Positions 4,713 through 19,143 of a stretch of DNA of 64,000 bases are shown here, in pieces. A model generated the notes under the pieces. The model had not been told where the DNA came from, made no database searches, and saw only the letters and a program-made list of their open reading frames with translations. The DNA comes from an uncultured Halobacteriales archaeon (GTDB lineage Archaea > Halobacteriota > Halobacteria > Halobacteriales > Halobacteriaceae), in the NCBI GenBank assembly GCA_964594685.1, contig CAZQNH010000002.1, positions 2,816 to 66,815 of the forward strand, given 5' to 3'. Each line of letters begins with the position of its first letter. The stretch's first letter is position 1. A program made the position numbers and the translations under genes.

Positions 4713-5282
4713 TCACCCATTATATACTACGACCTCGAATCCCGCTTGGTTCCGACGAACCCCCGCTGCAGCGACCGGGTGCTCGAACTCGGCGTCGTAC
4801 ACGTCTCGGGCTGCATCCGCGGCCGAATCGACACTCCATTCGTAGGGCTCAGGGGTGTCTTTCTCGTAGGTCCCTACCAGCGTTGGCTCGTCGACCGCCC
4901 GCACAAGTAAGGCATCAGACCTGACGATACCGATCAGTGCGGACTCGCCCAACACGCCGACGATACGGGGGGTGTCGTAGTCGTCCTTCTCGAAGTCGAG
5001 GGCGAACAGCCCTGTGACCATGGCATCCCGCGGCGGGTAGCCCAGGTCGAGTTTCTCCGCGATGGGGTCGACGTGCGAGCCGTTCCCGAGGACGAGGGCG
5101 TCCCCACCCGGTCTCACGCAGTTGTACGAGACGTAGGGATTGTCCGTCGAAGGGGCGTCTGCGGTGGGGACGACGGTCAGGGTCTTCCCACGTTCGACCA
5201 CCTGTCGATTCGGAAAGGAGCGGGACGAAACCCGGTATGCGGCCGACTCGGGGCCGACGACGAGGAAGCGACCGATGTACAT
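4713..5282 (-). CDS. purO: Archaeal IMP cyclohydrolase PurO
   Basis: [47 protein letters not shown]-like motif ([12 protein letters not shown]); ATG at 5282. Confidence 0.95.
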
Positions 5283-5473
5283 ACGGGTGGAAACCGGGAA
5301 CTGGGGCAAAAGGGTGGCGGTCCGCCCCATCGGCCGGCCCGTTGCAGGACACCTCCATGCAATTTATACTGTGGGAGAGGTGGGGGATCGGCTTCCGACC
5401 CCATGGCCGAATGTCGTTGCTCGATTCGCCAGAAAGGACCGACGACCTGGGGCTACACTCCTTCGCAACACTC

Positions 5474-5480
5474 TTAAAAT
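5474..5480 (+). promoter_or_regulatory. TATA box of the tRNA-Gln gene
   Basis: TTAAAAT ending about 23 bp upstream of the mature tRNA 5' end. Confidence 0.6.
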
Positions 5481-5502
5481 ACAGTCTCGTACCGGCTAAC
5501 GG

Positions 5503-5575
5503 AGTCCCATGGGGTAGTGGCCAATCCTGTCAGCTTCTGGGGCTGACGACCCAGGTTCGAATCCTGGTGGGACTA
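5503..5575 (+). tRNA. tRNA-Gln, anticodon CTG; no intron, CCA not encoded
   Basis: Acceptor stem AGTCCCA/TGGGACT, anticodon arm TCAGC-TTCTGGG-GCTGA, T arm CCAGG-TTCGAAT-CCTGG. Confidence 0.97.
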
Positions 5576-5772
5576 TCGACTCGACGTTTCGAACCCCTAT
5601 CGCCGTTTTCCCGTTACAGTGTTCCTTCAAGGACCCGCGTTACTCTGTTCCGTTCAGGGCTCTCGTGACACCGTTGCCAAGGCGGTACGTCGCTGGTGCG
5701 AGCAGAGCTTCAATCCCCGACCAGGCATTCTCGTTTGTGTGAGGAGAGACCAGCCGGCACCGTTCGGCGCGG

Positions 5773-6348
5773 TCACTCGGGCCGAAAAATCGGGAGTGTA
5801 TGGAGCGTGTGGACGTCACTGTGAGTGCGACCTTCCTCGAAGATGGCGGTTTTCGTCAGGACGTTCGCACCCACCGTTCCCAGGATTCGTTCGACCGAGG
5901 CCAAGGTCCCACCGGTCGAGACGACGTCATCCACGATCGCGACAGTGGTGTCATGGATCTTCTCCGCGGTTCGCCCGTCCAGTACGAGGTGCTGGGGTTC
6001 GTCGGTGGTGATGGAGTCAACCGTGACCGACACCGGGTCCTGCATGTAACTCTTTACGCTCTTCCGCACGACCACGTATTCGAGGTTTGTCTGTCGGGCG
6101 ATCGAGTGGGTCAACGGTAGTGCCTTTGCCTCCGGTGTCACCAGATAGTCGATCCGATCGGTGGCCAGGCCGTCGGCAAGCGCCGAGGCCGCAGCATCGA
6201 TGAACTCGGTATCGCCAAGCACTAGCCCCGCATCCGAGGCGATGTATACGTCGGGTTGGACTTCGACGAGCGGAAGCTCCCAGGCGTTGCCAAAGAGGGC
6301 GACTGTATACTGTCCTCGCCCGTCATAGGACTGTTCGAACTCAGGCAT
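5773..6348 (-). CDS. Type I purine phosphoribosyltransferase (Apt/Xpt-like)
   Basis: TPEAKALPL, VVVRKSVKSY and PRPP loop VAIVDDVVSTGGT. Confidence 0.9.
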   Translation of the reverse strand: MPEFEQSYDGRGQYTVALFGNAWELPLVEVQPDVYIASDAGLVLGDTEFIDAAASALADGLATDRIDYLVTPEAKALPLTHSIARQTNLEYVVVRKSVKSYMQDPVSVTVDSITTDEPQHLVLDGRTAEKIHDTTVAIVDDVVSTGGTLASVERILGTVGANVLTKTAIFEEGRTHSDVHTLHTLPIFRPE

Positions 6349-6354
6349 GGGCAG

Positions 6355-7143
6355 TCAGGCAAATCCCCCCAGCCACATCGTCAGGGTTCCAACCGTGAAG
6401 ACCACGCTCGTTCCGATGACCAGGTAATCCGGTTGGGAAAGGGACCCGTGGGTGGGCTGGGATCGATTGTTCGCGTTCGAAAACCCCTTCAATTCGAGCG
6501 CCATGGCAAGGTCTTCACTTGCCTGCACGCCCCTGACAACGGCCGGGACCAACACGGCGCTATTGGCCCGCAGCCTGGCACGAAGGCCACCACGATCCAG
6601 GACGGCCCCCCGAGCCTGCTGGGCGTGTCGTATCTCCCGGATCTCGTCGAGAAACACGTCCACCATCCGTAAGACCAACCCGAAGCCGAAAGCCACTTTG
6701 TACGGTACCTTGAGTTGGACGAGGGCGGCGACCAGCGCTTCTCGCCGAACGGTCATCAAGACGAACAAGGGCGTGGTTATCATGACGAGCAACCGAAGGG
6801 GCATTCCCAGGCCCCGATAGAGGGACGTTTTGGAGACCCGCAGGGGTCCGAAAGCCACGAGGGTCTGTGATCCTGCCCCAGCGAGGGAGAGGTGACCGAA
6901 AAAGGTCCAGAGGACGAAGGAAAAGAGCGCGAACGGGAGCAGTAGCCGGAGCCACTGGAACATCTCGGGGTGTACACGAGCGACCCGAGCGAGTGCGAGC
7001 ACCGTAAGGAAGACGGTGCCGATGACCAGCGGATTATCGAACAGGAGCCCGATCACGATCACGGTAACCGCCATGGCCAGGATCGCCCGGGGATCGAGTT
7101 CGTGGATGATGGAGTCACGATCCACGTACTCGACGACCTTCAT
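6355..7143 (-). CDS. ecfT: ECF transporter transmembrane component T (EcfT/CbiQ)
   Basis: Hydrophobic; AQQARG and ALELKGF (Ala-Arg-Gly-type motifs); HELDPRA N-terminus. Confidence 0.92.
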   Translation of the reverse strand: MKVVEYVDRDSIIHELDPRAILAMAVTVIVIGLLFDNPLVIGTVFLTVLALARVARVHPEMFQWLRLLLPFALFSFVLWTFFGHLSLAGAGSQTLVAFGPLRVSKTSLYRGLGMPLRLLVMITTPLFVLMTVRREALVAALVQLKVPYKVAFGFGLVLRMVDVFLDEIREIRHAQQARGAVLDRGGLRARLRANSAVLVPAVVRGVQASEDLAMALELKGFSNANNRSQPTHGSLSQPDYLVIGTSVVFTVGTLTMWLGGFA

Positions 7144-8657
7144 GTTCGTTTACTCACCCGTCCGTGTGCGGGTTCCTCGGTATCCGACCCATCACCCGAC
7201 GATGACTTACGCTCAGCGATTGCGCCGTTGCGGATCGCTAGCGTCCGGTCAGTCCAGGTGTCGACGATAGCCCAGTCATGCGATACCACGACGAGACTTC
7301 GATCTCCGCCCATGAACGCAGATTCGATCGCCTCCATGATGGCCCAGAACTCGCGGTAATCGAGCCCGGTCGATGGTTCGTCGAGGATCAGTACCGTCGG
7401 ATCGAGGGCTAACACGCTCGCGATAGCGAGCCGTTGTTTCTCCCCCCGCGACAGCGCGCCGACGGACGCCGACCGACGTCCCTCGAGTCCAACAATCGAT
7501 AGTGACTGGGCGACCCGTTTCTCGACCGAATCGACCCCGAGATTGCTCGGGCCAAACGCCACCTCTTCTCGGACCGTTGGGGCATACAACTGGGTATCCG
7601 GTTCCTGGAATACGTACCCGATATCCGAAGCGAGTTCGGCGGCCGGCGTCTCGGTCACATCCGTGCCTCGAAACTCGATCGATCCGGAGTCCGGGAGCAA
7701 TAGCCCGTTCAATTGCTTGGCGAGCGTCGTTTTGCCGGACCCGTTTGCCCCGACCAGGGCGAGGGTTTCGCCACGATCGATCTGCACGTCGAGGCCCTGA
7801 AGGACCGGCCCCGACCCGTAGCTGAAGTGGAGGTTTTCGACGGACAGGTTCGGCGATTTCCCACTGGTTGTGGGGCCAATCGCCGCCCCCGGCGGGGTTG
7901 GGGCGTCACGAACCGGAGGGTTCGCACTGGTGGGGGGAACCAATCCGAGGGCGGATTGGAGGGCTCTATCGGACCGAAATGCCGCACCAGGCAGGTCGTG
8001 AGCGAGACGCCCATCCCGGAGGACGAGGGCGCGGTCGGCTAACTCGGCGGTCTCGTCCAACTTCGATTGGGTCAGGAGCACTGTTTTCCCCTGCGAACGG
8101 AGGTCCGCGATCGTGTCCCGGATGATGGCACTGGCGTCGGGATCGAGATTGAAGGTCGGTTCGGCCACCAGGAAGATGTCGGGGTCTTTGGCCATCGCTG
8201 CCGCAAAGGCGACCCGGCGCTTTTCGCCGCCGGACAGGTCTTTGGGATCGGCAGATCGAAGGTCCGCGATCTTCAGTCTCGCCGTCACCGCCGATACACG
8301 TTCTTCGATGGTCGCCGAGGACAAACCCAGATTTTCCGGAGCCAGGCGAACGTCCTCATCGACGGTCAATCCAACGAGCTGGGTGGCGGGATTCGGAAAG
8401 ACGACCCCAATGCGTTCGGCCAGATTCGTTCCGGACAGGCGGCGCGTGTTCCGGGAATCGATCTCGACTGCACCCGTGAATCGGTCGACACGCCGAAGCT
8501 TAGGGATGACACCGACGAGTGTCAACCCCAATGCGAGTGTTGCTTTGGGGTCTTCACCCGTCAGCAGGACACAACTTCCGTCCGGAATCGACACCGACAG
8601 CTCTGTAAACCGCGGCGATCCGTCCGTCTCGACGCCAACATCGGTTGCTTCGATCAT
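7140..8657 (-). CDS. ecfA: ECF transporter ATPase with two fused ABC domains
   Basis: Domain 2 has GANGSGKTT, LSRGEKQR, ILDEPS; domain 1 is degenerate (GEDPKAT, LSGGEKRR, LVAEPT); ATGA overlap with ecfT. Confidence 0.92.
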   Translation of the reverse strand: MIEATDVGVETDGSPRFTELSVSIPDGSCVLLTGEDPKATLALGLTLVGVIPKLRRVDRFTGAVEIDSRNTRRLSGTNLAERIGVVFPNPATQLVGLTVDEDVRLAPENLGLSSATIEERVSAVTARLKIADLRSADPKDLSGGEKRRVAFAAAMAKDPDIFLVAEPTFNLDPDASAIIRDTIADLRSQGKTVLLTQSKLDETAELADRALVLRDGRLAHDLPGAAFRSDRALQSALGLVPPTSANPPVRDAPTPPGAAIGPTTSGKSPNLSVENLHFSYGSGPVLQGLDVQIDRGETLALVGANGSGKTTLAKQLNGLLLPDSGSIEFRGTDVTETPAAELASDIGYVFQEPDTQLYAPTVREEVAFGPSNLGVDSVEKRVAQSLSIVGLEGRRSASVGALSRGEKQRLAIASVLALDPTVLILDEPSTGLDYREFWAIMEAIESAFMGGDRSLVVVSHDWAIVDTWTDRTLAIRNGAIAERKSSSGDGSDTEEPAHGRVSKRT

Positions 8658-8666
8658 CGGGTGGCG

Positions 8667-9257
8667 TTAGTAGCGATACGAGAGAAGGTCCCGATCGCGG
8701 AGCACCGGGACGACCGCCCGGAGGACGATCGGCGTCCCGATGACGATCGCTGGCATGTCCGCGGGTACGAGGGTTCCGATGGCAGCGAAGAAGGGGGCGA
8801 CCCCGACGACTTCGAAGCCGAGGGCCACGATGGGAATCATGACAAGCCCGGCCACCGTCGCGATCAGCGTGGCTTTCGCGAGCCCAGCTGTCGTGTCACA
8901 GTCATCCGGCGTGAGCAGATACCCGGGGATCGCCCCCGTCAGACCGACCCCGACCAGGTCGAACACCGGCGTCGCGGGGTTGAAATAGCCGCCCAGGATG
9001 GCCCAGATGAGGTTTCCTACCCCACCGGCGATGAAACCGGTTCGCCATCCATAGAGCACGCCGAACACCACCGGGAGAAAGGCCATGATCCGCAATTGAA
9101 TGGCCCCAGGGATCAGCGGAATCGGTGCGGTTAACAGAAAGCCGACGCCGGTAATCGCCGACGTGATCGCCATCATGGCGACGATCCGGGCCTCCGAAGG
9201 CGTCTCATCGACCGACTTTTCGGGTTGGATTGTTCGGGTGGACTCGGAATGTCCCAT
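8667..9257 (-). CDS. ECF transporter substrate-binding S component
   Basis: About 195 aa, ~6 TM; 'FLPVVFGVLYGWRTGFIAGGVGNLIW' is S-component-like; first gene of the ecfA-ecfT-PRTase run. Confidence 0.85.
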   Translation of the reverse strand: MGHSESTRTIQPEKSVDETPSEARIVAMMAITSAITGVGFLLTAPIPLIPGAIQLRIMAFLPVVFGVLYGWRTGFIAGGVGNLIWAILGGYFNPATPVFDLVGVGLTGAIPGYLLTPDDCDTTAGLAKATLIATVAGLVMIPIVALGFEVVGVAPFFAAIGTLVPADMPAIVIGTPIVLRAVVPVLRDRDLLSYRY

Positions 9258-9686
9258 ACACAATATTCCAATTTCCGGCAGTCTAATAATTCTTTTTAGT
9301 CACGTTCATGCATATAACTGTGTTGAGAGACGGAAAGTAGCGAGCAGCCTTCGGCCGGAAACACATACCGCACTAATCAGCGAAGATGGCTGAAAACTCG
9401 CTTTCGATACTGATCTGAACACTCCGGGCGAACCCAACCGGCGGTCAGGCGATACCTCCGCGACGAAAAAGCCAAACCGACTCTCGAGTGGCTAGCTGTC
9501 GCAGGTGGACCGACGCAGCGAGAACAAGACCCTTCTGAGGGCGTATCGAGTCGGGGATATTAGTGACAGGCGTGGGGGCACTTGAAGGGCTGCAGTCTTT
9601 TGATTACTGAGATGCGCTTCCGGCCGGTCGAACGTCGCAACGGGGAGGCGGCCAGTAATCTCGACGCCGAAACGGATGGGCCCTTC

Positions 9687-10162
9687 CTACTCGGCATCCT
9701 GGCGGAATCGCAGGAGAACCCATCCCGGGAGCAGCACGATGGTCAGGAAGGTCGGTATCGCGGAGCTGCAGGCGAGGAGATTCGAGATGATACTCCAGGC
9801 CAAGAGATGGAGGAGCCCGATCCAGAACGGGAGCAGGCCTACCAAACGGTCATCGCCGATTATCGTACGGGTCCCGAATACCGAGATGGCGAGTGGGAGA
9901 CCGAAGAGTATCGACAGGACGATCGCCGCCAACCACGGCTCTTGGACGCCAAGTTGCCCTGCGGCTGCGAGAAGAATCACCGCCCCCCTCAACCCGAGGC
10001 CGAGCCACTGGACGGCGTCGGGCCATCTGGTGGCGAAGAAGCCCAAGAACACGAAGGGAAGAGGATCAGGGCGATGATCGTACCAGTGACCCATTATACG
10101 GCCACGACGGGTGCGTCGTACACCGCGAACCGCGCCAGCGCTTGTATCCAAGATGGCCCCAT
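9687..10162 (-). pseudogene. Probable disrupted membrane-protein gene (in-frame TAA plus 1-nt frameshift)
   Basis: ATG 10162 reads MGPSWIQALARFAVYDAPVVAV, TAA at 10096-10094, then WVTGTIIALILF continues in frame; a 1-nt shift at ~10057 joins hydrophobic PFVFLGFFATRW... Confidence 0.4.
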
Positions 10163-10477
10163 CCTATGATTTACCAGTATCCCGCCCCCTGCGACGCGTC
10201 TGAAAAGCCGTCTTCACCGTCGTGTGGTTCGATCACGACCAGGGACGGATCCGCCGGGATTACGTTCCGGTTTAGATGCCACGTTGTTCAATCTCGGCAA
10301 CGCGCTGTTTCCGCCGTGACTTTGGCACTGTTTGGCACTCGAGGAACCTCTCCGAGGATATGAACCTTCGGTACCCCCCGTGTGAAAATCCGGGTTTAGA
10401 GAGCCGGCCCAGCATATTATGGGCCCGTACGTCGGTCCCGTCATCTATTTAAACGCTTCCTCGTTAATGGTTATCAA

Positions 10478-10494
10478 TCCGTGTGCGACACGGA
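10478..10494. promoter_or_regulatory. Palindrome between the TATA box and the dppA start (candidate operator)
   Basis: TCCGTGT-gcg-ACACGGA; TATTTAAA at 10446-10453; ATG at 10514. Confidence 0.45.
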
Positions 10495-10513
10495 GCACTG
10501 CGAGTGACACACA

Positions 10514-12238
10514 ATGCCAAAAGATACAGAAAACTGGCACGTGCGCCGACGCCGAATCCTCCAAGGACTCGGCGGCGCAAGTATCGTGGGTCTCGCCGGC
10601 TGCACCGGTGGAGACGGCGAGGACACGACCACCACGACCACCGAAGAGGGTGGCGGCGGTGGTGAGACGACGACCACCGAGGAGGAGATGACCCAAGAGG
10701 GCGGCAAACTCAATCTGGCCCAGGTCAAAAGCCCGATCGAGTTCGACCCGATCGTGCTCAACGACGTCCCGTCCCTTCAGGTCTCCCAGAACGTCTTCGC
10801 CGGACTCTATCAGTACGATGCCGGCACGAACGTCGTTCCGGACATGGCCGAGGGCGAACCCGACGTCTCCTCGGACGGGACCGAGTGGACGGTAACGCTG
10901 AAGGAGGGTCCACAATTCCACAACGGGGATCCGGTGACGCCGGAAGACGTCCGGTATTCGTTCCTGGCGCCGGTGGAGGAGGAGACGGAGAACGCTTCGG
11001 AGCTGAACATGATCGAGTCCATCGACATCGATGGACAGGACATCACGTTCAACCTGAGTTTCCCGTACGGAGCCTTCATCCACAACCTTACGTGGCTCAT
11101 CGTTCCCGCAGACGTGCGCGGCGAGATAGGTTTCGAAGGGGAAGGTGAGGACAAGGAGTTAAAGGACAAAGCGAGCAAGGACAAGTTCAACACCCAGAAT
11201 CCCATCGGGTCCGGGTCGTTCAGGTTCGTCGACTGGCAGGAAGGAAACTATGTGCGACTCGAGCGGTGGGACGACTACTGGGGGATGGACTCCCCGAACC
11301 TTCAGGAGATCGAGTTCGTCCCGATCGAGGAGGGGACGACCAGGGTCACCACACTTCGGAACGGCGAGAACGACATCATTGAGGAGATTCCCCCGCGGCT
11401 GTGGGGTACCGTGGAAGGAATCAGCGATGCACAAATCGACTCGGTGCCGGGAATCGGGTACTTCTACCTGGCGTTCAACTGCAACGAAGGCCCGACCACG
11501 GACCCGAAGGTGCGGGAGGCTGTCGACTACGTCTTCAGCATGGACCAGGCGGTGTCGAACTTCGTGGAGCCGACCGGGCTGCGACAGTACAGCCCGCTGC
11601 CGCGTCCCATCGCCGAGGATTGGGAGATGCCACTCGACGAGTGGGAGGCTATTCCCCACGACAAGGACATCGATATGGCGAACCAGTTGTTCGACGAAGC
11701 GGGCGTCGATTCCGGCTACCAGTGGAACATCATCGTCCCACCGGACGACAAGCGCGAACAGATCGGCGTCACGGTTTCGAACGGCCTGAAGGAGGCCGGG
11801 TTCGAAAACGTCTCGGTCCAGCGACTCGACTGGGGTGCCTTTCTCGATAAGTACATCACCGGCGATCCGGACGAGTACAACATGTTCACGCTGGGGTGGT
11901 CTGGAACGCCCGACCCGGACGCGTTCACGTACTTCCTCTTCGGCCGGACGGATGACACCCTGGGTGTCACGAACGGGTCGTTCTACGGGAACAACTCGGA
12001 GCGGGGCAAGGAAGCTGCCCAGATGTTCGTCGACGCTCGCGAGAGCTCAGACTACGATGAGCGCCAACAGCTCTACCAGGAAGGTATCACGATGCTCCTC
12101 GAGGATCGTGCCCACTTGCCGGGCTACAACCTGAAGAACAGCTTCGGGGTCAAGGACTACGTCAACGACTTCACCTCCCACCCGACCGATTCATTCCACA
12201 TCTTCAGTGGACACAACAACGTCTCGGTCAACAAGTAG
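10514..12238 (+). CDS. dppA: Peptide ABC transporter substrate-binding lipoprotein (family 5), Tat-exported
   Basis: RRRILQGLGG Tat motif, LAGC lipobox, Thr/Glu/Gly linker, FHNGDPVTPEDVRYS, PIGSGSF. Confidence 0.93.
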   Translation: MPKDTENWHVRRRRILQGLGGASIVGLAGCTGGDGEDTTTTTTEEGGGGGETTTTEEEMTQEGGKLNLAQVKSPIEFDPIVLNDVPSLQVSQNVFAGLYQYDAGTNVVPDMAEGEPDVSSDGTEWTVTLKEGPQFHNGDPVTPEDVRYSFLAPVEEETENASELNMIESIDIDGQDITFNLSFPYGAFIHNLTWLIVPADVRGEIGFEGEGEDKELKDKASKDKFNTQNPIGSGSFRFVDWQEGNYVRLERWDDYWGMDSPNLQEIEFVPIEEGTTRVTTLRNGENDIIEEIPPRLWGTVEGISDAQIDSVPGIGYFYLAFNCNEGPTTDPKVREAVDYVFSMDQAVSNFVEPTGLRQYSPLPRPIAEDWEMPLDEWEAIPHDKDIDMANQLFDEAGVDSGYQWNIIVPPDDKREQIGVTVSNGLKEAGFENVSVQRLDWGAFLDKYITGDPDEYNMFTLGWSGTPDPDAFTYFLFGRTDDTLGVTNGSFYGNNSERGKEAAQMFVDARESSDYDERQQLYQEGITMLLEDRAHLPGYNLKNSFGVKDYVNDFTSHPTDSFHIFSGHNNVSVNK

Positions 12239-12319
12239 GTCGACGCAGCCCCCAGATTTCGAATCGTTTATAGCCAGGAAAGTCTTCGTACCCGAAAGAA
12301 CGAGACGGAGGACCAACCC

Positions 12320-13372
12320 GTGGGTCTCACCAGATATACCATCCGCCGGCTGTTGCAGGCCGTCCCCGTGATAGTTGGTATCATCACGATCACCTTCTTC
12401 CTTACAGACGCGATTCCAGGCGACCCGGTGTCGATCATGCTGGGCCCCTCGCCGAGTGCGCAACAAGCGGCCGCGATTCGGGCGAAGTATGGACTCGACC
12501 AACCACTGTTCATCCGCTATTTCAACTACCTCGGTGACGTCTCGCCGATCTGGTTCGACACGACCTCGACGTTCCCGTTCCTGGAGCCCACCTTCGGCGT
12601 GGACCTGGGCCAGAGCATCTATTACAAGGTGCCCGTGGTCCAGAAGATCGCCGAACGGTTGCCGGTGACCCTGTTGCTCCTCGTCTCGAGTTTCTCCTTT
12701 GCCCTCCTGGCGGCGGTCCCGCTGGGCGTCATCTCGGCGAAGCGCCGGAACAAGCCGGTCGACCACGTCTCCCGGGTCGTCGCCCTCATCGGCGTCTCGA
12801 CACCGAGCTTCTGGATCGGGCTTATCCTCATCATCGTCTTCGCCTTCCACCTCGACATGTTCCCGGCGACCAATCTCGTGATGCCGTATGCCGATCCAGC
12901 GGAGGTGGAAGGGGCAGAAAGCTGGGTCGACGTGCTGGTGGTATCGGGCAAACACCTGCTGTTACCGACCCTCTCGCTCGGGACATTGCAGATGGCGGCT
13001 ATCACGCGTATCGAGCGCTCGGCCATGCTCGAGAACCTCTCGAAGGACTACGTGCAGCTGGCCCGCGCCTACGGGGTCAGGGAACGGACCATCCTCCGGA
13101 AGCACGCCTTCCGCCCGGCCCAGCTGCCCGTCATCACCATCGTGGGACTGGGACTCACCCAGGCCCTCGGTGGCGCGGTCCTCACCGAGACAGTCTTCAG
13201 TATCAACGGGATGGGCCGACTCATCATCACGGCCATCTACAACCAGGACATCCCTCTGGTGATGGGTACGACCATCTTCTTCGGGCTGATGTTCGTGATC
13301 GGGGTCATCATCACGGACATCTCGTATGCCTATGTGGATCCGCGGGTGTCCTACGGGGAACAGGAGGGATAA
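12320..13372 (+). CDS. dppB: Peptide ABC transporter permease
   Basis: IPGDPVSIMLG, EAA-like loop DYVQLARAYG, GGAVLTETVFSINGMG; GTG start. Confidence 0.95.
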   Translation: MGLTRYTIRRLLQAVPVIVGIITITFFLTDAIPGDPVSIMLGPSPSAQQAAAIRAKYGLDQPLFIRYFNYLGDVSPIWFDTTSTFPFLEPTFGVDLGQSIYYKVPVVQKIAERLPVTLLLLVSSFSFALLAAVPLGVISAKRRNKPVDHVSRVVALIGVSTPSFWIGLILIIVFAFHLDMFPATNLVMPYADPAEVEGAESWVDVLVVSGKHLLLPTLSLGTLQMAAITRIERSAMLENLSKDYVQLARAYGVRERTILRKHAFRPAQLPVITIVGLGLTQALGGAVLTETVFSINGMGRLIITAIYNQDIPLVMGTTIFFGLMFVIGVIITDISYAYVDPRVSYGEQEG

Positions 13373-13373
13373 T

Positions 13374-14390
13374 ATGGGAACGCAGGACAGAACTGATACA
13401 GGCATCACCGATAATCCGGCCTCGGACGAACCCATAAGCGAGGAATCGAGTACCGGTGGCGTCGCCCGCGAGGAGGTTGCGGCTCGCGTCGGCTGGCGGT
13501 ACACCTACGCGCAGATCAAACGGGACCCGACCGCACTCGCGGGATTAGGCATCGTCGGCTTCTTCGGCACCATCGCTATCATCGCGGCGATCGATTTCTA
13601 CATCCTGGATTACTGGCTTGCCACCACGTTCTGGGTGCACCCGGAGAACGATCCGGCCACTATCGAGACGCTCCTACCGCCGGTGGGCCTCGAAAACGAG
13701 TTCGGATCCGGAACCATGGCCCACCCGCTCGGGACCGACCACCGAGGACGGGACCTCTTGGTCCGGCTCTTCTATGGCACCCGGATCGCGATGACCGTCG
13801 GATTCATGGCGACCATCATCGGATTCGTGGGCGGCACGGTCGTCGGCGCCGTCTCGGGCTACTACGGTGGGTGGGTCGACGACGTGCTCATGCGGGCCGT
13901 CGAGACCATCTACGCTATCCCGTTCCTGGTCCTCGTGATCGCCTTCATGACCGCGTTCGGCCGCGATCTGACCTTCGCCATGGTGGGCGTGGGAATCGCG
14001 TCGATTCCGACCTTCGCCCGACTCATCCGCTCACGCGTGGTGAGCGTGCGGGAGGAGGACTACGTGGAGGCGGCTCGGGCGGCCGGGGTCCGTGATAGCG
14101 GTATCATCCTCCGGCACGTGATCCCGAACAGCTTCGCGCCGGTCCTGGTCCAGGCGACCCTCCAGATCGGCGTCGCTATCCTGATCGTTGCCGGGCTCTC
14201 CTTCCTCGGGTTCGGTGCCCAGCCGCCGACGCCCTCTTGGGGCCAGATGCTTTCGGCCTCGCGGAACTACATGCTCCCGGACCCGTGGTTCAGCGTCTGG
14301 CCGGGGTTGGCCATCCTCATTACGGTGGTCGGCTTCAACCTGTTCGGCGACGGCCTTCGAGACGCACTCGATCCCCGAATCAATAATTAA
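13374..14390 (+). CDS. dppC: Peptide ABC transporter permease
   Basis: HPLGTDHRGRD, EEDYVEAARAAG, LSFLGFGAQPPTPSWG, RDALDPR. Confidence 0.95.
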   Translation: MGTQDRTDTGITDNPASDEPISEESSTGGVAREEVAARVGWRYTYAQIKRDPTALAGLGIVGFFGTIAIIAAIDFYILDYWLATTFWVHPENDPATIETLLPPVGLENEFGSGTMAHPLGTDHRGRDLLVRLFYGTRIAMTVGFMATIIGFVGGTVVGAVSGYYGGWVDDVLMRAVETIYAIPFLVLVIAFMTAFGRDLTFAMVGVGIASIPTFARLIRSRVVSVREEDYVEAARAAGVRDSGIILRHVIPNSFAPVLVQATLQIGVAILIVAGLSFLGFGAQPPTPSWGQMLSASRNYMLPDPWFSVWPGLAILITVVGFNLFGDGLRDALDPRINN

Positions 14391-14392
14391 CA

Positions 14393-15589
14393 ATGTCCGA
14401 TCCCCTCCTCGAAGTCAAGAATCTCAAGACCCAGTTCTTCACCGAAGAAGGCGTCGTGCGTGCCGTCGATGGCATCTCGTTTACTGTCAACGAAGGCGAG
14501 ATCGCCGGCCTGGTGGGTGAATCGGGTGCGGGAAAGAGCGTCGCTGCCCAGTCCATCATGCGTCTGGTCGAAGAGCCCGGGGAGATCGTTGGCGGAGAGG
14601 TCCTGTTCAAGGGCCAGCCGCTGATCCAGTACGAGGAGGTCGGCGAGGCCAAGGCTGACCCGGAATCGATCCTCGACGACGCGGACGATAACGTCGTCCG
14701 GCAGACCGACAGTGGGGCGGTCGAACTCCGGCCCACCGACGCGATGCTGACGAACGAGGAGATGCGACGCCGCATCCGTGGTCGCGAGATCGCGATCATC
14801 TTCCAGGATCCCATGGAATCATTGAATCCGGTGTACACCGTTGGGGGTCAGCTCCGGGAGTTCATCGAGATCAACCGGAACATGGGCGAGTCGGCGGCCA
14901 AGGACCTCGCGATCGAGATGTTCCGCGAGGTGGGCATCCCCGAGGCCGCCGACCGGTACTCGGATTATCCCCACCAGTTCTCCGGCGGGATGCGCCAGCG
15001 GGTGCTCATCGCGATGGCGCTGTCGTGCGAGCCCTCCCTCATCATCGCGGACGAGCCGACGACGGCCCTCGACGTCACCGTCGAAGCCCAGATTCTCGAA
15101 CTCGTCGACGAACTCCAGAAGGAGTACGCCACCTCTTTCATCTGGGTCACACACGACATGGGCGTCATCGCGGAGATCTCCGACCGGGTGAATGTGATGT
15201 ACCTCGGGGAGATCGTCGAACAGGCCGAAGTGGACGACCTGTTCCACGACACCAAACACCCCTACACCGACGCGCTGCTCGATTCGATACCGCGGCCGGA
15301 CCAGACCGTGGAGGATCTGCACCCAATCGCCGGGGTCATGCCTGAGGCGATCAATCCCCCGTCTGGCTGTCGGTTCCACCCGAGGTGTCCCGAGGCAAGA
15401 GAGGTGTGCACGCGGGTCCATCCGCATCCCGAGATCGTTGAGATGGACGGGGCACCCCACCGCTCGGCGTGTTTCAGGAACGATGACGTCTTCGACGTGG
15501 ATTACTGGGGGAGCGAACCCATCGAACTCCAGGCGGGTGCCGGGTTCGGTGCCGGGCTCGCCGAGGACCGCGGTGGTGGTGAGGAATGA
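14393..15589 (+). CDS. dppD: Peptide ABC transporter ATPase
   Basis: [31 protein letters not shown]-terminal GCRFHPRCP. Confidence 0.96.
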
Positions 15590-16902
15590 GTCTCGCCGAC
15601 GGCCACGACGAACTCGTCTCGGAGGATGACGTCGACTTCGGGGAGACGCTCCTCGACGTCGATGGTCTCAGCAAGTACTTCCCGAACGAGACTGGCTTCC
15701 TCGCGGGTCTCAAGTTCGATGGCGATGGCCGGATTCCCCGTCCGCGGCTCGATCGGCAGTGGGTGAGGGCCGTCGACGACGTCACCTTCAAGATCAGGAA
15801 GGGCGAGACCCTGGGGTTGGTGGGCGAGTCCGGGTGCGGGAAGTCGACGCTCGCGCGGACGGTCCTCAAGCTCCTCGAACCCTCCGCCGGGGACGTCTAC
15901 TTCAAAGGGGACAACCTCGCGGAGATGTCCGGCGACGCTCTCCGGTCGACCCGAAAGGACATGCAGATGATCTTCCAGGACCCACAGTCCTCCCTCGACC
16001 CGCGGATGAAGGTGGGTCCGATCGTCGAGGAACCGTTGCGGGCCCACGGGATTTTCGACGAAGAGGGCCGAGAGCAGCGCGCCAGGGACCTCCTCGAGCG
16101 TGTCGGGCTCGACCCCCAGCACTACAACCGGTACCCACACCAGTTCTCCGGAGGACAACGTCAGCGGATCAACCTCGCCCGGGCGATGTCCGTGAACCCG
16201 GACCTCATCGTGTGTGACGAGCCCACGAGCGCCCTCGACGCCTCGATCCAGGCCCAGGTGCTCAACACGATGCGTGACCTCCAGGCGGAGTTCGGTCTCA
16301 CCTACCTGTTCATCAGCCACGACCTCTCAGTCATCCGTCATATCTCCGATCGGGTCGCCGTCATGTACCTCGGCGAGATCGTCGAGGTCGCGGACAAAGA
16401 AGAGCTATTCGAGAACCCTCAGCACCCCTACACCGACGCGTTGCTCGAGGCCATCCCGGTCCCTGACCCGCGGGCATCGGGGACCCGCAGTGCCCTCGCG
16501 GGAGACGTCCCGAGCCCCATCAATCCGCCCTCAGGCTGCCGATTCCGGACGCGGTGCCCGCAACTCATCGCGCCCGAGGAGTTCGACCTCAGCGACGTGG
16601 AATGGGACGAAGTTCGGGATTTCCTCCGGGCGGTGGACCGCCGGACGTTCAAAGTCACTGACGAGTCCCAGATCAGGGCGGAGTTCTTCCCTGACGGCGT
16701 GCCGCGGGGCCGCGCCGGGGATGTGATCGAGGAGAGTATCGACCTCCTGTTGGCGGAGGACTGGGAGAGCGCACAGTCGCTCGTCCGCGAGGAACTCGCC
16801 GATCCGAGCATCTGTGCCAAGGAGAAGCCCGCCTACGAACTGGAGCCCAAGATGGGTGAGAACCGGCACTTCGTTGCCTGCCACCTCCACCGCGAAGGGT
16901 GA
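15586..16902 (+). CDS. dppF: Peptide ABC transporter ATPase
   Basis: [38 protein letters not shown]; ATGA overlap with dppD. Confidence 0.96.
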
Positions 16903-17014
16903 CCTACGACAGACAGGCTGGAGGGAACTGGTCCCACATACTTCAGTCTGGGAAGTGACTGACCGGATACTCCAGCGAAACGAGACTCACTCAGACAGTC
17001 CGCAGGCAAGAAAC

Positions 17015-17410
17015 TCACTCCAGGGTCCTATCTCCCATCGCGTTACGCACAGACCGCCGGGTCCAGGCGGCCGCTGGAGCGGATACCGCCCCCTCGATGG
17101 TGAAAAGCGGCAGGATCAGGACGATCATCGCGAACCAGGTGAACAAGGCCCAATCGATGGCGAACCCGGTCCCGATCACCCGGTATCGGTAGGCGCCGAC
17201 GAGGGCGACCGTTCCCACGAAGAGTCCCGCGCCCAGGGCGCCGGCTTTCGCCCCGCGGATCAGGCCGGCGTCGGTCGGACGACCCGACAGCCCCACGACG
17301 ATGCCGGCGGCCAGTCCACAGGGGACGATGGCTGTCCGGGTGATCTGGGTCCAGGCGAGCAGGGACAAGACTCCCGTCAGGACCCCCCCGAGGAGGAGTG
17401 GTCTATCCAT
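17015..17410 (-). CDS. Small multi-pass membrane protein
   Basis: 131 aa with ~4 hydrophobic Gly-rich helices; last gene of the usp-pit run. Confidence 0.7.
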   Translation of the reverse strand: MDRPLLLGGVLTGVLSLLAWTQITRTAIVPCGLAAGIVVGLSGRPTDAGLIRGAKAGALGAGLFVGTVALVGAYRYRVIGTGFAIDWALFTWFAMIVLILPLFTIEGAVSAPAAAWTRRSVRNAMGDRTLE

Positions 17411-17416
17411 AATCGA

Positions 17417-17893
17417 TCACCTCACCTCGATCGTCGTCCGGTCCTCCGGACGGGGGTGGCCCTCCACGGCGATGAAGGCCGAGATCTCGTGACGGCCCGG
17501 CGTGAGCGGCTCCCACCTGTCGGGTGATCCGGTCCGCCGGATGGTGCCCTCCCACCGGCGGGTGATGCGTTTCCGTTCCCGGCCCCGGAAGCTCATCATC
17601 GCTTCCTCGGGACTGAGGTATCGTCGCTCTTCGCTCGCCTCGAGGGCACCGTCGACGGCCCACCCCCAGAGTCGGGCTCGCGGGGTCTTGACCGTCACGG
17701 GGACGGGGAGTCGGTTCTGGAATTCGATGGCTATCTCGACGGCCTCACCCGGGGCGTACTTCGTGCGGTCCGTCGTGACGTCGACGTCGATGGCCCGGCG
17801 AGCGAGCCGCTGGGGAATCAGTCGGCCGAGGGCCTCGGTCAGGTAATTCGTGGTTTCATCGAACCCGGTCCGGTCCAACTCGTCCGCGGCCAT
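17417..17893 (-). CDS. Conserved hypothetical protein, probably beta-sandwich; start could be up to 17941
   Basis: 'VDVTTDRTKYAPGEAVEIAIEFQNRLPVPV...LWGWAVDG...PGRHEISAF'; tightly packed with neighbours. Confidence 0.75.
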   Translation of the reverse strand: MAADELDRTGFDETTNYLTEALGRLIPQRLARRAIDVDVTTDRTKYAPGEAVEIAIEFQNRLPVPVTVKTPRARLWGWAVDGALEASEERRYLSPEEAMMSFRGRERKRITRRWEGTIRRTGSPDRWEPLTPGRHEISAFIAVEGHPRPEDRTTIEVR

Positions 17894-17937
17894 CGTTTCT
17901 CGGTAGGTGACAACTCGTCTTCGCTTTGTCGGTCCGG

Positions 17938-19143
17938 TCACCCGCCCAGGATGATCGCGAACACCCGGTAAAGCCCGAAACCGACCAGGATCGACGACGT
18001 GAGCGTGATGATCCAGAATACGAGCGTGACGCCGATCTTCCGACGTGAGACCCCCGCAGAGCCCCCAGCCAGGCCCCCGCCGATGACGCCCGACAGGATG
18101 ATATTATTGAACGAGATCGGGATCCCCAGCGCGATGGCGACCTGGGCGATGATGAAGCCGGGCACCAGGGCGGCGATGGATCGTCGGATTCCCAGTTGTG
18201 CGTACTCCCGGGACGTGGCCTGGAGGAGTCGGGGGGCGCCCATCCAGGCCCCGCCGAGGATCCCCAGCGCGCCCAGCCCGAGCAGCGTGATACCCGGGAG
18301 GCCAAGTTCGGCCCGGAACAGGTTCTCGAGCGGACCGGTTGCCAGTCCCACCTGGCTGCCGCCGCTGGAGAACGCGACGACGCTCCCGAGGACGACGAGG
18401 AACGTGCTGACGCCCTGCTCGACGGACTCCTGTGTGCGGCGTCGTATGTAGGTGAAACTGGCAGCGGCGAGGGCTGCGGTGACCACCGGAACCAGCAGGT
18501 CGATCCCCCCGACCGAGGGTGTGTCCACCAGCATCGAGACGAACCCTGCTAATGAGTTCTGGGATTCCCCCGGCAGGGCCGGGATCACCCCCAGTCTGAT
18601 GTTCGCCAGGACTGCACCGACCAACCCGGCGAGGAGCGGTATCGCCAGTGTATCGGGGATGTCGTCTCGGCGGAGTAACGTGGCGGTCCCGTACGCGAGG
18701 CCACCCGAGACCGGCGGGACCATCAGCCAGAACAGGCCGATCCGGCGGTACGTGTCGAATGCTGGATCGCCACCGAGTGAGAGCCCGACGCCGATCATGG
18801 CCCCGGTCGTCGCGAACGCGGCGGGGATGGGATACCCGAAGAATATCCCGGTGGCCATGAAACTGGCCGCGGTCAAGAGCCCGGCTGTGGCGGCCAGCGA
18901 GGAGAAGGCGACCCCGCTGATGAGGTGCGATCCCACGGTCTCGGAGATGGCGCCGCCCTGGGTCAGGGCTCCCAGGGCAGCCAGGATCCCGATCAGGAAG
19001 GCCGCCCGCATCGTGGAGATGGCGTTGGCACCGATGGCAGGCGCGAATGGCGGGGAGTTGCTGTTGGCGCCGAGGGTCCAGGCGGTGAACAGGCTGATCA
19101 CGGTCGCGAGCACGACGAGCGACCAGAATCCGAATGCGGTCAT
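17938..19143 (-). CDS. pit: Inorganic phosphate transporter, PiT family
   Basis: PiT signature GANSNSPPFAPAIG and second repeat AFSSGGSQVG; PISFNN. Confidence 0.88.
   Translation of the reverse strand: MTAFGFWSLVVLATVISLFTAWTLGANSNSPPFAPAIGANAISTMRAAFLIGILAALGALTQGGAISETVGSHLISGVAFSSLAATAGLLTAASFMATGIFFGYPIPAAFATTGAMIGVGLSLGGDPAFDTYRRIGLFWLMVPPVSGGLAYGTATLLRRDDIPDTLAIPLLAGLVGAVLANIRLGVIPALPGESQNSLAGFVSMLVDTPSVGGIDLLVPVVTAALAAASFTYIRRRTQESVEQGVSTFLVVLGSVVAFSSGGSQVGLATGPLENLFRAELGLPGITLLGLGALGILGGAWMGAPRLLQATSREYAQLGIRRSIAALVPGFIIAQVAIALGIPISFNNIILSGVIGGGLAGGSAGVSRRKIGVTLVFWIITLTSSILVGFGLYRVFAIILGG

What the first reader, a model, noticed from the sequence alone, without database searches (positions are those of the whole stretch)
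5773..9257. ECF transporter operon ending in a purine phosphoribosyltransferase: candidate nucleobase uptake-and-trap module
Seen: S component, dual ATPase, EcfT and PRTase are co-oriented with gaps under 10 bp or overlaps, close to purO. Established: ECF importers are best known for vitamins and metals, and PRTases trap bases as nucleotides. Inference: a dedicated (group I) ECF system for a purine base or base analogue or cofactor precursor, a substrate class poorly characterised for ECFs, especially in archaea.
Basis: partly seen in the sequence, partly recalled or inferred. Interest (0 to 1): 0.6.

Follow-up and report, generated by a model that had tools for sequence, protein, structure and literature searches.

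The report
ECF importer coupled to purine-salvage enzyme
A salt-loving archaeon has acquired a four-gene unit that joins a vitamin-type (ECF) ATP-driven importer to an adenine-phosphoribosyltransferase-like enzyme. The unit is conserved across many archaea and most likely scavenges a purine-ring base, either AICA or adenine, a substrate class I found no paper describing for this transporter type.

Summary
On the minus strand, an S component (8667-9257), a fused double ATPase (7140-8657), EcfT (6355-7143) and a 191-aa phosphoribosyltransferase (5773-6348) are separated by 9, -4 and 6 nt.

- **S component:** it has the S-component fold but belongs to no characterised vitamin family.
- **PRT:** it is PRK07322-type. 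Its sister clade holds the adenine-specific Thermus APRT.
- **Conservation:** the same S family is followed by A/A', T and this PRT type in all 42 archaeal loci long enough to tell. Halophile relatives keep the link in three different gene orders.
- **Neighbours:** the only other conserved neighbours are PurP genes (AICAR to FAICAR; 20/48 loci) and a PurR-like HTH-PRT (11/48).
- **Phyletic pattern:** in one archaeal class, genomes lacking both PurC and histidine synthesis keep PurP only if they carry the module (7/7 versus 1/12).

I therefore favour import of AICA, trapped as AICAR (about 0.42). Adenine is the close rival (about 0.33).

In this genome the operon is a rare lateral acquisition. 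It was found in 0 of 300 other genomes of the class and lies in a variable region beside tRNA-Gln, so its nearness to purO is incidental.

The scan met this operon family before on other DNA. I found no published description of it.

The parts
8667..9257 (-). S component (196 aa) of a distinct, highly conserved archaeal family
   Evidence: PF07155 at 29.7 bits, marginal. It is 55-65% identical to homologues in Thermoproteota, Nitrososphaeria, Bathyarchaeia and Aenigmatarchaeota, with 58 invariant columns. The AlphaFold model has pLDDT 86 and a six-helix S-component fold; TM is 0.5-0.6 to RibU, ThiT, FolT and BioY at 12-23% identity. An AxxxA motif (AITSA) is present in helix 1.
7140..8657 (-). 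Fused EcfA-EcfA' ATPase (505 aa) with a degenerate first nucleotide site
   Evidence: Two ABC_tran domains; cbiO subfamily above its cut-off, and ECF_ATPase_1/2 at 301/295 bits, just under their cut-offs. The N-terminal Walker A reads TGEDPKAT and Walker B reads VAEP. The C-terminal half is canonical. L061 shares this pattern; L116, L117 and L119 do not.
6355..7143 (-). EcfT / CbiQ-type transmembrane coupling subunit (262 aa)
   Evidence: PF02361 at 103 bits. An ARG coupling motif is present. Its start overlaps the ATPase stop by 4 nt.
5773..6348 (-). PRK07322-type type I phosphoribosyltransferase (191 aa), APRT-like
   Evidence: NF005592 at 204 bits, cut-off 143. PDB 5zgo and 6fsp (Thermus APRT) at E 1e-41 and 1e-39, about 50% identity. 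The PRPP motif VAIVDDVVSTGGT is present. It falls in a clade (SH-aLRT 96) with the Thermus/Deinococcus APRTs.
9283..9317 (-). Conserved AT-rich upstream block, promoter-like, with an imperfect palindrome CATGAACGTG
   Evidence: This is the only block conserved between the upstream regions of the window and L061. TATA-like stretches lie 26-41 and 55-60 nt before the ATG. Its function is inferred. The palindrome is not enriched genome-wide.
5503..5575 (+). tRNA-Gln(CTG), marking the edge of the variable region that holds the operon
   Evidence: The tRNA is 89-91% identical in three same-genus genomes, directly after purO. Synteny is lost from there to about window position 18000.
4713..5330 (-). 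purO (IMP cyclohydrolase): a possible downstream pathway enzyme, not part of the operon
   Evidence: NF003167 at 254 bits. The askA-tnaA-purO-tRNA-Gln order is conserved in same-genus genomes that lack the operon.

Best explanation
The four genes encode a dedicated ECF-type ABC importer and a cytoplasmic APRT-family phosphoribosyltransferase that work as an uptake-and-trap unit for a purine-ring base. My preferred substrate is AICA (5-aminoimidazole-4-carboxamide).

Proposed mechanism:
1. The S component binds the free base outside the cell.
2. It topples on the EcfT scaffold when the fused A-A' ATPase, which has one competent site, turns over ATP.
3. It releases the base inside the cell.
4. 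The PRT condenses the base with PRPP to give AICAR.
5. In this haloarchaeon AICAR would enter the last two steps of IMP synthesis, through the PurH AICAR-transformylase domain and then PurO.
6. In most other carriers, which lack de novo purine synthesis, AICAR would feed the adjacent PurP enzymes.

What is shown: the gene content, the folds and family assignments, the conserved linkage, the PurP linkage and the phyletic pattern. What is inferred: the identity of the substrate, the direction of transport, co-transcription, and any physical coupling between the proteins.

The operon reached this lineage by lateral transfer.
For: - **Module anatomy and family assignments:**
- **Conserved order:** the S-A(A')-T-PRT order occurs in 42/42 informative loci from several archaeal phyla.
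- **Link survives rearrangement:** the same S family and the halo-clade PRT stay linked in three different arrangements in L061, L116, L117 and L119.
- **Conserved neighbours:** among all ORFs within 7 kb in 48 loci, the only further conserved neighbours are PurP-family genes (20 loci, often a tandem pair) and an HTH-PRT (11 loci). No other pur gene occurs in more than 4 loci.
- **Purine genes in the 48 carrier genomes:** PurP in 46, PurC in 6, PurO in 0. Fifteen genomes have PurP but neither PurC nor HisA/F. In 12 of those 15, PurP is within 7 kb of the module, against 8 of 31 His+ genomes.
- **Control class of 76 genomes:** among the 19 lacking His and PurC, PurP is present in 7/7 with the module and in 1/12 without it.
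- **Stated open question:** Brown et al. [quoted passage not shown]
- **AICA as an APRT substrate:** that classical APRTs of E. coli and mammals (not this PRK07322 family) accept AICA is established biochemistry from my own knowledge.
- **Own genome:** it has a PurH AICARFT domain, PurO and HisA/F.
- **Selection:** all four genes are under purifying selection against L061, with dN/dS 0.09-0.29.
Against: - **Nearest characterised relative:** Thermus APRT, in the sister clade at about 50% identity, is a 6-aminopurine enzyme. It did not accept the AICA-like 1,2,4-triazole-3-carboxamide. AICA itself was not tested (PMC6317416).
- **No sign of a specificity switch:** only one conserved column (position 81) separates the ECF-linked Thermoproteota PRTs from the standalone and Thermus APRTs.
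- **Background pattern:** PurP without PurC is a class-wide trait. Thirty-eight of 55 module-less genomes also have PurP, so most of the phyletic signal rests on the His-less subset, which represents only a few lineages.
- **Data quality:** the genomes are MAGs of unknown completeness.
- **This host does not need the module:** it has de novo synthesis genes and other purine PRTs.
- **No direct data:** no ligand, transport or expression data exist.
Confidence: 0.42

Rival explanations
1. This is an adenine (6-aminopurine) uptake-and-trap unit. The ECF system imports adenine and the PRT makes AMP. PurP adjacency in other archaea would then reflect a shared purine regulon, or the ATP to AICAR to IMP route through histidine synthesis.
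For: - The PRT falls in a supported clade with the Thermus/Deinococcus APRTs.
- TthAPRT is specific for 6-aminopurines. It belongs to this family: T. thermophilus matches PRK07322 and gives no classical Apt hit, and the subunit is 19 kDa / 178 aa.
- Active-site residues are conserved family-wide.
- No archaeal Hpt/Apt-type PRT scores above its cut-off in any of the 48 carrier genomes. In about 33 of them the ECF-linked enzyme is the only PRK07322-type copy, so it may be their housekeeping APRT.
- Most carriers lack PurC and need external purines.
Against: - It does not explain why PurP is kept, and sits next to the module, in genomes with neither histidine nor de novo purine synthesis (7/7 versus 1/12; 12 of 15 adjacent).
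- Twelve carriers have a second, standalone PRK07322-type PRT that could be the housekeeping APRT.
- The window's host already has an archaeal Apt/Hpt-type PRT.
Confidence: 0.33
2. The importer is for another heterocyclic base or cofactor precursor, such as hypoxanthine, guanine, xanthine, a deazapurine or a benzimidazole, which the PRT phosphoribosylates.
For: - The S family is unlike any characterised one.
- TthAPRT shows side activity on guanine and allopurinol.
- ECF systems for base-like precursors have been proposed (QueT/QrtT, CblT; own knowledge of Rodionov 2009, which I could not read here).
Against: - The PRT family is APRT-like, not Hpt-, Xpt- or CobT-like.
- G329 and G323 carry a separate Gpt-like 6-oxopurine PRT.
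- No cofactor-pathway genes are conserved nearby.
Confidence: 0.13
3. The PRT-like protein is not a salvage enzyme. It is a PRPP-sensing regulatory or accessory subunit of a transporter for an unrelated micronutrient.
For: - PurR-type proteins use a PRT fold as a PRPP sensor, and the PRT scores weakly against purR_Bsub.
- HTH-PRT genes accompany the module in 11 loci.
Against: - The protein has no DNA-binding domain.
- It keeps the full PRPP motif and the family-wide catalytic residues.
- It is about 50% identical to an enzyme with measured APRT activity.
Confidence: 0.06
4. In this genome the operon is a decaying, non-functional remnant of a lateral transfer.
For: - The first Walker A and Walker B of the ATPase are degenerate.
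- The operon is absent from 300 other genomes of the class.
- The host does not need it.
Against: - All four ORFs are intact.
- dN/dS against L061 is 0.09-0.29.
- The degenerate site is shared with L061, while the second site is canonical. Many ABC transporters work with a single competent site (own knowledge).
Confidence: 0.06

Closest known systems
Dedicated (group I) ECF transporters such as CbiMNQO, BioMNY, YkoEDC and QrtTUVW
   Same: S component, EcfT and two ABC ATPase domains are encoded together in one operon. The system has the S-component fold, a CbiQ-type T subunit and CbiO-type ATPases.
   Different: - The S family is distinct from all characterised ones.
- The inferred substrate class is a purine-ring base, not a vitamin or a metal.
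- A phosphoribosyltransferase gene is an obligate fourth member.
- In this copy one ATP site is degenerate.
Base permease plus PRT operons such as xpt-pbuX (B. subtilis) and upp-uraA (E. coli) (own knowledge)
   Same: They follow the same logic: a base transporter is co-transcribed with the PRT that traps the base as a nucleotide.
   Different: Those transporters are secondary carriers of the NCS2/NAT family. Here the transporter is a primary, ATP-driven, presumably high-affinity ECF system.
Thermus thermophilus APRT (PDB 5zgo, 6fsp; TthAPRT)
   Same: It belongs to the same PRK07322 family and forms the sister clade. It is about 50% identical and has the same PRPP motif and conserved residues.
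   Different: The Thermus gene stands alone with no ECF genes nearby. Its measured substrates are 6-aminopurines, and AICA was not tested.
RibU / PF07155 riboflavin S components
   Same: The only Pfam model the S component passes, by 3 bits. TmRibU is the top fold match.
   Different: - Identity is about 20% and TM about 0.5, no better than to ThiT or FolT.
- No NCBIfam RibU hit was found.
- The profile search of PDB sequences finds nothing.
- No riboflavin genes lie nearby.
ECF ATPases fused in frame to a purine PRT in acid-loving archaea
   Same: An ECF importer is tied to a purine-type PRT, which suggests the same uptake-and-trap principle.
   Different: According to those notes the S family and the PRT type (Gpt/Hpt-like) differ, and the link is a gene fusion, not a separate gene. 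I did not examine them.

Membership tests
ECF-type ABC importer, dedicated (group I-like) | A small integral-membrane S component with the six-helix S-component fold | tested here: met
   The model has pLDDT 86. The top 26 PDB fold matches are all ECF S components, with probability 0.87-1.00.
ECF-type ABC importer, dedicated (group I-like) | An EcfT/CbiQ transmembrane coupling subunit | tested here: met
   PF02361 at 103 bits, cut-off 25. An ARG motif is present in the sequence.
ECF-type ABC importer, dedicated (group I-like) | Two EcfA/CbiO-type ABC ATPase domains | tested here: met
   Two ABC_tran domains. TIGR01166 cbiO at 259.5 bits, cut-off 211.8. ECF_ATPase_1/2 score 301/295, just under cut-offs of 315/330. 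The first site is degenerate.
ECF-type ABC importer, dedicated (group I-like) | S, A and T genes in one operon, as opposed to an orphan S gene sharing a common module | tested here: met
   The junctions are 9, -4 and 6 nt, and the order is conserved in 42/42 informative loci. Co-transcription itself is not shown. Three other CbiQ genes exist in the genome.
ECF-type ABC importer, dedicated (group I-like) | ATP-dependent substrate import | not testable with these tools
   This needs reconstitution or uptake assays.
RibU (riboflavin S component, PF07155) | A significant match to RibU models and closer similarity to RibU than to other S families | tested here: inconclusive
   PF07155 at 29.7 bits against a cut-off of 26.7. 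No NCBIfam RibU hit. The PDB profile search gives no hit at E<=10. By fold, RibU is no closer than ThiT or FolT.
PRK07322-type adenine phosphoribosyltransferase | A score above the curated family cut-off over the full length | tested here: met
   NF005592 at 204.1 bits, cut-off 143, covering residues 13-189.
PRK07322-type adenine phosphoribosyltransferase | The PRPP-binding motif and conserved catalytic residues of type I PRTs | tested here: met
   VAIVDDVVSTGGT is present. The family-wide invariants E73, K75, R95, K96, K99, D140, D141 and S144 are present.
PRK07322-type adenine phosphoribosyltransferase | Adenine as the physiological substrate | not testable with these tools
   Only the Thermus member has been assayed. 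The conserved PurP context suggests AICA may be the relevant base.

The most novel reading that the evidence does not exclude
The ECF-PRT module is the missing AICA salvage route of archaea. It would be a primary-active importer for the ring-open purine precursor AICA, whose PRT makes AICAR for PurP (or for PurH/PurO). This would explain how archaea with neither de novo purine nor histidine synthesis feed their retained PurP genes. It would also be the first ECF transporter for a nucleobase-class substrate.
Probability: 0.42. Interest if true: 0.75.

Novelty: new variant of a known kind. Interest (0 to 1): 0.6.

Why it matters
ECF transporters are textbook vitamin and metal importers. A widely conserved archaeal ECF system hard-wired to a purine-salvage enzyme would add a new substrate class.

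It would also give a concrete candidate for the 'unidentified salvage pathway' that Brown et al. (2011) invoked for AICAR supply in Korarchaeum. More generally, it bears on how the many archaea that lack PurC obtain purines.

The hypothesis is directly testable with a binding assay on one small membrane protein and a PRT assay on one soluble enzyme. The halophile copy may be a convenient handle, because haloarchaeal genetics (for example in Haloferax) are available.

Tried and rejected
- **Riboswitch or leader RNA upstream of S:** Rfam found only the tRNA at gathering threshold, and nothing credible in 9150-9700 at E<=10.
- **Integration scars:** no att-like direct repeat of the tRNA-Gln 3' end was found in 5400-19000.
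- **Bacterial-type promoter and terminator scan:** uninformative for an archaeon.
- **Upstream palindrome CAyGAACGTG as a regulon operator:** it occurs 22 times in the genome with no link to purine genes, so I dropped it.
- **purO adjacency as functional clustering:** rejected, because purO-tRNA-Gln is ancestral in the genus and the close relative L061 has no purO nearby.
- **'Carriers lack PurC' as specific evidence:** weakened, because the control class lacks PurC generally (7/76).
- **Specificity-determining residues between ECF-linked and standalone PRTs:** only one column differs.
- **Literature:** six full-text searches combining ECF, S component, PRT, adenine, AICA or nucleobase terms found no description. 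A seventh, for the term HtsT, returned only unrelated papers. Rodionov et al. 2009 (PMC2612444) is not held, so its S-family list could not be checked. The 2024 S-component fold survey mentions neither purines nor PRTs.
- **Expression:** no RNA holder is listed. The stretch is held only by four sediment-metagenome DNA runs of one study, two of which may be its source. I did not lay any reads.
- **Protein-protein docking of PRT to the ATPase:** not attempted, because I do not claim that they bind.
Full report
**1. What is there**

The window is GC-rich (about 62%). Four minus-strand ORFs occupy 5773-9257.

- The first gene (8667-9257, ATG at 9257) encodes a 196-aa membrane protein. It passes only Pfam PF07155 (ECF-ribofla_trS), and only just: 29.7 bits against a cut-off of 26.7. 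Its best NCBIfam hit is the FolT family model at 16.7 bits against a cut-off of 60.
- The second gene (7140-8657) is a 505-aa fusion of two ABC ATPase domains of the CbiO/EcfA type. TIGR01166 scores 259.5 bits (cut-off 211.8), and ECF_ATPase_1/2 fall just under their cut-offs.
- The third gene (6355-7143) is a CbiQ/EcfT protein (PF02361, 103 bits).
- The fourth gene (5773-6348) is a 191-aa type I phosphoribosyltransferase. NCBIfam places it in NF005592/PRK07322 at 204 bits (cut-off 143).

The junctions are a 9-nt gap, a 4-nt overlap and a 6-nt gap. purO (4713-5330) follows on the same strand after a tRNA-Gln(CTG) gene on the opposite strand (5503-5575).

**2. The S component is a family of its own**

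A search of 5.8 billion proteins found only five homologues at 76-87% identity. Beyond those it found a large set at 55-65% identity from Thermoproteota, Nitrososphaeria, Bathyarchaeia, Methanomethylicota and Aenigmatarchaeota. An alignment of 22 of them has 69% mean column identity and 58 invariant positions, which is unusually tight for S components.

A profile of this alignment finds no chain of the PDB by sequence, even at E<=10. The AlphaFold model (pLDDT 86, pTM 0.82) has the six-helix S-component fold. It matches RibU, ThiT, FolT, BioY, PanT and HmpT about equally, with TM 0.5-0.6 and 12-23% identity. The protein is thus an S component by fold, but it does not group with any characterised vitamin family.

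**3. The PRT**

By sequence the closest solved structures are the Thermus thermophilus adenine PRTs 5zgo and 6fsp (E 1e-41 and 1e-39, about 50% identity). Next come 1vch and an adenine phosphopsicosyltransferase, 7f06.

TthAPRT has been assayed. It converts adenine and 2-substituted adenines. It works poorly on hypoxanthine and moderately on guanine and allopurinol. It does not convert 1,2,4-triazole-3-carboxamide. AICA was not tested (PMC6317416).

TthAPRT belongs to this family. T. thermophilus matches the PRK07322 model and gives no hit to the classical Apt model, and the enzyme is 19 kDa.

**4. The linkage is conserved**

A pattern scan of one genome per prokaryotic species gave 48 archaeal loci that carry the S family. 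In all 42 loci whose contig extends far enough, tblastn with the window's proteins finds the same order on one strand: S, one fused or two separate ATPases, T, then a PRK07322-type PRT. The other six contigs end before the PRT position.

Halophile-type relatives found through the PRT show the same S family (60% identity), a fused ATPase and T linked to the PRT in three different arrangements:
- S-AA'-T-PRT in the window and L061;
- AA'-T-S, with the PRT either convergent (L116) or divergent (L117);
- PRT-AA'-T in L119.

Two members stand alone: L071 (Halarchaeum sp. P4) and L118. A link that survives reshuffling argues for functional coupling and against mere inheritance of an operon.

**5. 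What else travels with it**

I clustered every ORF within 7 kb in the 48 loci. Beyond S, A, T and PRT, only two families recur:
- PurP-type formate-dependent FAICAR synthetases, in 20 loci and often as a tandem pair;
- a protein of about 237 aa combining an HTH domain with a PRT domain (NF006328/PRK08558, with PurR-like features), in 11 loci.

No other pur gene occurs in more than four loci. PurP uses AICAR. The obvious way for a PRT to feed PurP is to phosphoribosylate the free base AICA, a reaction that classical adenine PRTs are known to catalyse (own knowledge). Earlier notes of this scan on other genomes suggested the AICA idea. I tested it independently here.

**6. Phyletic tests**

In the 48 carrier genomes PurP is present in 46, PurC in 6 and PurO in none. 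A strong HisA/HisF pair is present in 31. Fifteen carriers have PurP but neither PurC nor HisA/F, so they have no known internal source of AICAR. In 12 of these 15 the PurP genes lie within 7 kb of the module, against 8 of 31 His+ carriers.

As a control I surveyed the whole class of one carrier, 76 genomes.
- Lack of PurC is general there (7/76), so by itself it says nothing about the module.
- PurP is also common without the module (38/55).
- Among the 19 genomes without His and PurC, however, all 7 with the module keep PurP, and only 1 of the 12 without it does. The uncorrected Fisher p is 1.6e-4.

Put another way, PurP is retained in 58 of 64 genomes that have any AICAR source (His, PurC or the module) and in 1 of 12 that have none. 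This is what AICA import predicts, and adenine import does not. Two caveats apply: these are MAGs, and the His-less genomes represent only a few lineages.

Brown et al. (2011) noted the same puzzle for Korarchaeum. [quoted passage not shown] They mention neither a transporter nor a PRT. The 2019 survey of the last two purine steps does not mention them either.

**7. Evidence pulling the other way**

In a maximum-likelihood tree, a clade with SH-aLRT support of 96 contains four groups:
- the window's PRT;
- the other halophile PRTs;
- the Thermus/Deinococcus APRTs;
- the standalone paralogues found in 12 Nitrososphaeria carriers.

The 40 ECF-linked PRTs of Thermoproteota and DPANN lie outside this clade. 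The tree came from a quick search, and the outgroup sits on a long branch.

Only one conserved column separates the ECF-linked group from the standalone and Thermus group: position 81, Y versus H, with Q or H in halophiles. The catalytic residues are invariant family-wide. So there is no sign of a specificity switch, and the one assayed member is an adenine enzyme.

In addition, none of the 48 carriers has an archaeal Hpt/Apt-type PRT above its cut-off. In many of them the ECF-linked enzyme may therefore simply be their APRT. I keep adenine as a close rival (0.33, against 0.42 for AICA). The two are not exclusive if the enzyme takes both bases and the S component sets the specificity.

**8. 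This genome**

The assembly (2.57 Mb, 90.6% complete) has only this one copy of the S gene. None of 300 other genomes sampled from the same class has the S component at E<=1e-10, including three genomes of the same genus.

Those three same-genus genomes keep askA-tnaA-purO-tRNA-Gln but lack the operon. Nucleotide synteny resumes only at about window position 18000. The operon therefore lies in a variable region of about 12.4 kb next to a tRNA gene and was most likely acquired laterally. Its nearness to purO is an accident of the insertion site. The closest relative, L061 (S 86% identical), has no purO nearby.

The host also has:
- a PurH AICAR-transformylase domain, PurO, a weak PurC match and HisA/F, but no PurP;
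- other PRT-domain genes, namely an archaeal Apt/Hpt-type PRT, an HGPRT-like protein, an HTH-PRT, PyrE, Upp and PRPP synthase;
- three further CbiQ-type genes.

Either AICA or adenine could be used by this host, and the module is an extra, not a necessity.

All four genes look functional. dN/dS against L061 is 0.09 for S, 0.29 for AA', 0.20 for T and 0.24 for PRT, although dS is near saturation.

One peculiarity stands out. The N-terminal ATPase half has lost its Walker A (TGEDPKAT) and the Walker B aspartate. L061 shares this state, whereas L116, L117, L119 and the Thermoproteota keep a canonical Walker A. That points to a stable transporter with one active site and argues against decay.

**9. 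Regulation and expression**

No Rfam family matches the 320-nt upstream region. The only block conserved with L061 is an AT-rich stretch at 9283-9317 that contains TATA-like elements and an imperfect palindrome. The palindrome is not enriched in the genome.

**10. Verdict**

What is established is the anatomy, the distinct and highly conserved S family, the near-obligate PRT partner, the PurP and HTH-PRT associations, and lateral acquisition in this lineage. What is inferred is the substrate (AICA favoured, adenine close behind) and the mechanism of coupling.

I found no published description of this system, although I could not read Rodionov et al. 2009. The scan has met the same operon family before on other DNA. 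I rate it a new variant of a known kind and of solid but not exceptional interest. It is directly testable and bears on a stated open question about archaeal purine supply.

Noticed in passing
window 7140-8657 (N-terminal half, about 8500-8560 and 8130-8170): The fused ATPase has a degenerate first Walker A (TGEDPKAT) and lacks the Walker B aspartate (VAEP). The second half is canonical. L061 shares this state. L116, L117, L119 and the Thermoproteota do not; many of the Thermoproteota instead have DD in place of DE in the first Walker B.
   Followed up: partly
window 5503-18000: tRNA-Gln(CTG) marks a synteny break with three same-genus genomes. The roughly 12.4 kb that follow differ from the roughly 10.9 kb found at the same place in G010. 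They hold the ECF-PRT operon, an unassigned 195-aa ORF at 9582-10169 and a Dpp/Opp-type peptide ABC transporter. No integrase or att repeat was seen.
   Followed up: partly
window 9283-9317: A block of about 32 nt is conserved with L061 upstream of the S gene. It contains TATA-like stretches and the imperfect palindrome CATGAACGTG (CACGAACGTG in L061). It may be a promoter or an operator. There is no genome-wide enrichment.
   Followed up: partly
L099 (G323:C5:60592-61119) and its counterparts L091, L092, L094, L096, L097, L102, L104, L090: Twelve Nitrososphaeria carriers have a second, standalone PRK07322-type PRT. These paralogues form their own clade (support 100) and group with the Thermus APRTs, not with the ECF-linked copies. 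They may represent a split between a housekeeping APRT and a transporter-coupled enzyme.
   Followed up: partly
L047 7001-8603: This looks like a decayed copy of the module. The S component matches only query residues 26-155, T only 107-251, and no ATPase lies between them. The PRT and a PurP-family gene are intact.
   Followed up: no
L002 5599-6978, L007 4005-5420, L019 9164-10630, L022 10665-12053, L029 10387-11832: These are long PurP-like proteins (459-488 aa) next to the module. Their Pfam DUF1297 match is split (about 1-130 and 135-188), which suggests an inserted segment in a PurP variant.
   Followed up: no
G350 (class of G323): This is the single exception to the pattern: a genome with two PurP genes but no S module, no PurC and no strong HisA/F match. 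It may be an incomplete MAG, or it may have another AICAR source.
   Followed up: no
P0053, P0096, P0100, P0112: Some public records name members of this S-component family 'histidine kinase'. This is probably an annotation carry-over from the fold shared with 5TMR sensor kinases.
   Followed up: no
G000:C43:8430-9167 and 9856-10377: The host's own HTH-PRT (PRK08558 type, 319 bits) lies about 700 nt from pyrE, far from the ECF-PRT operon. In other archaea this protein type sits beside the module.
   Followed up: no
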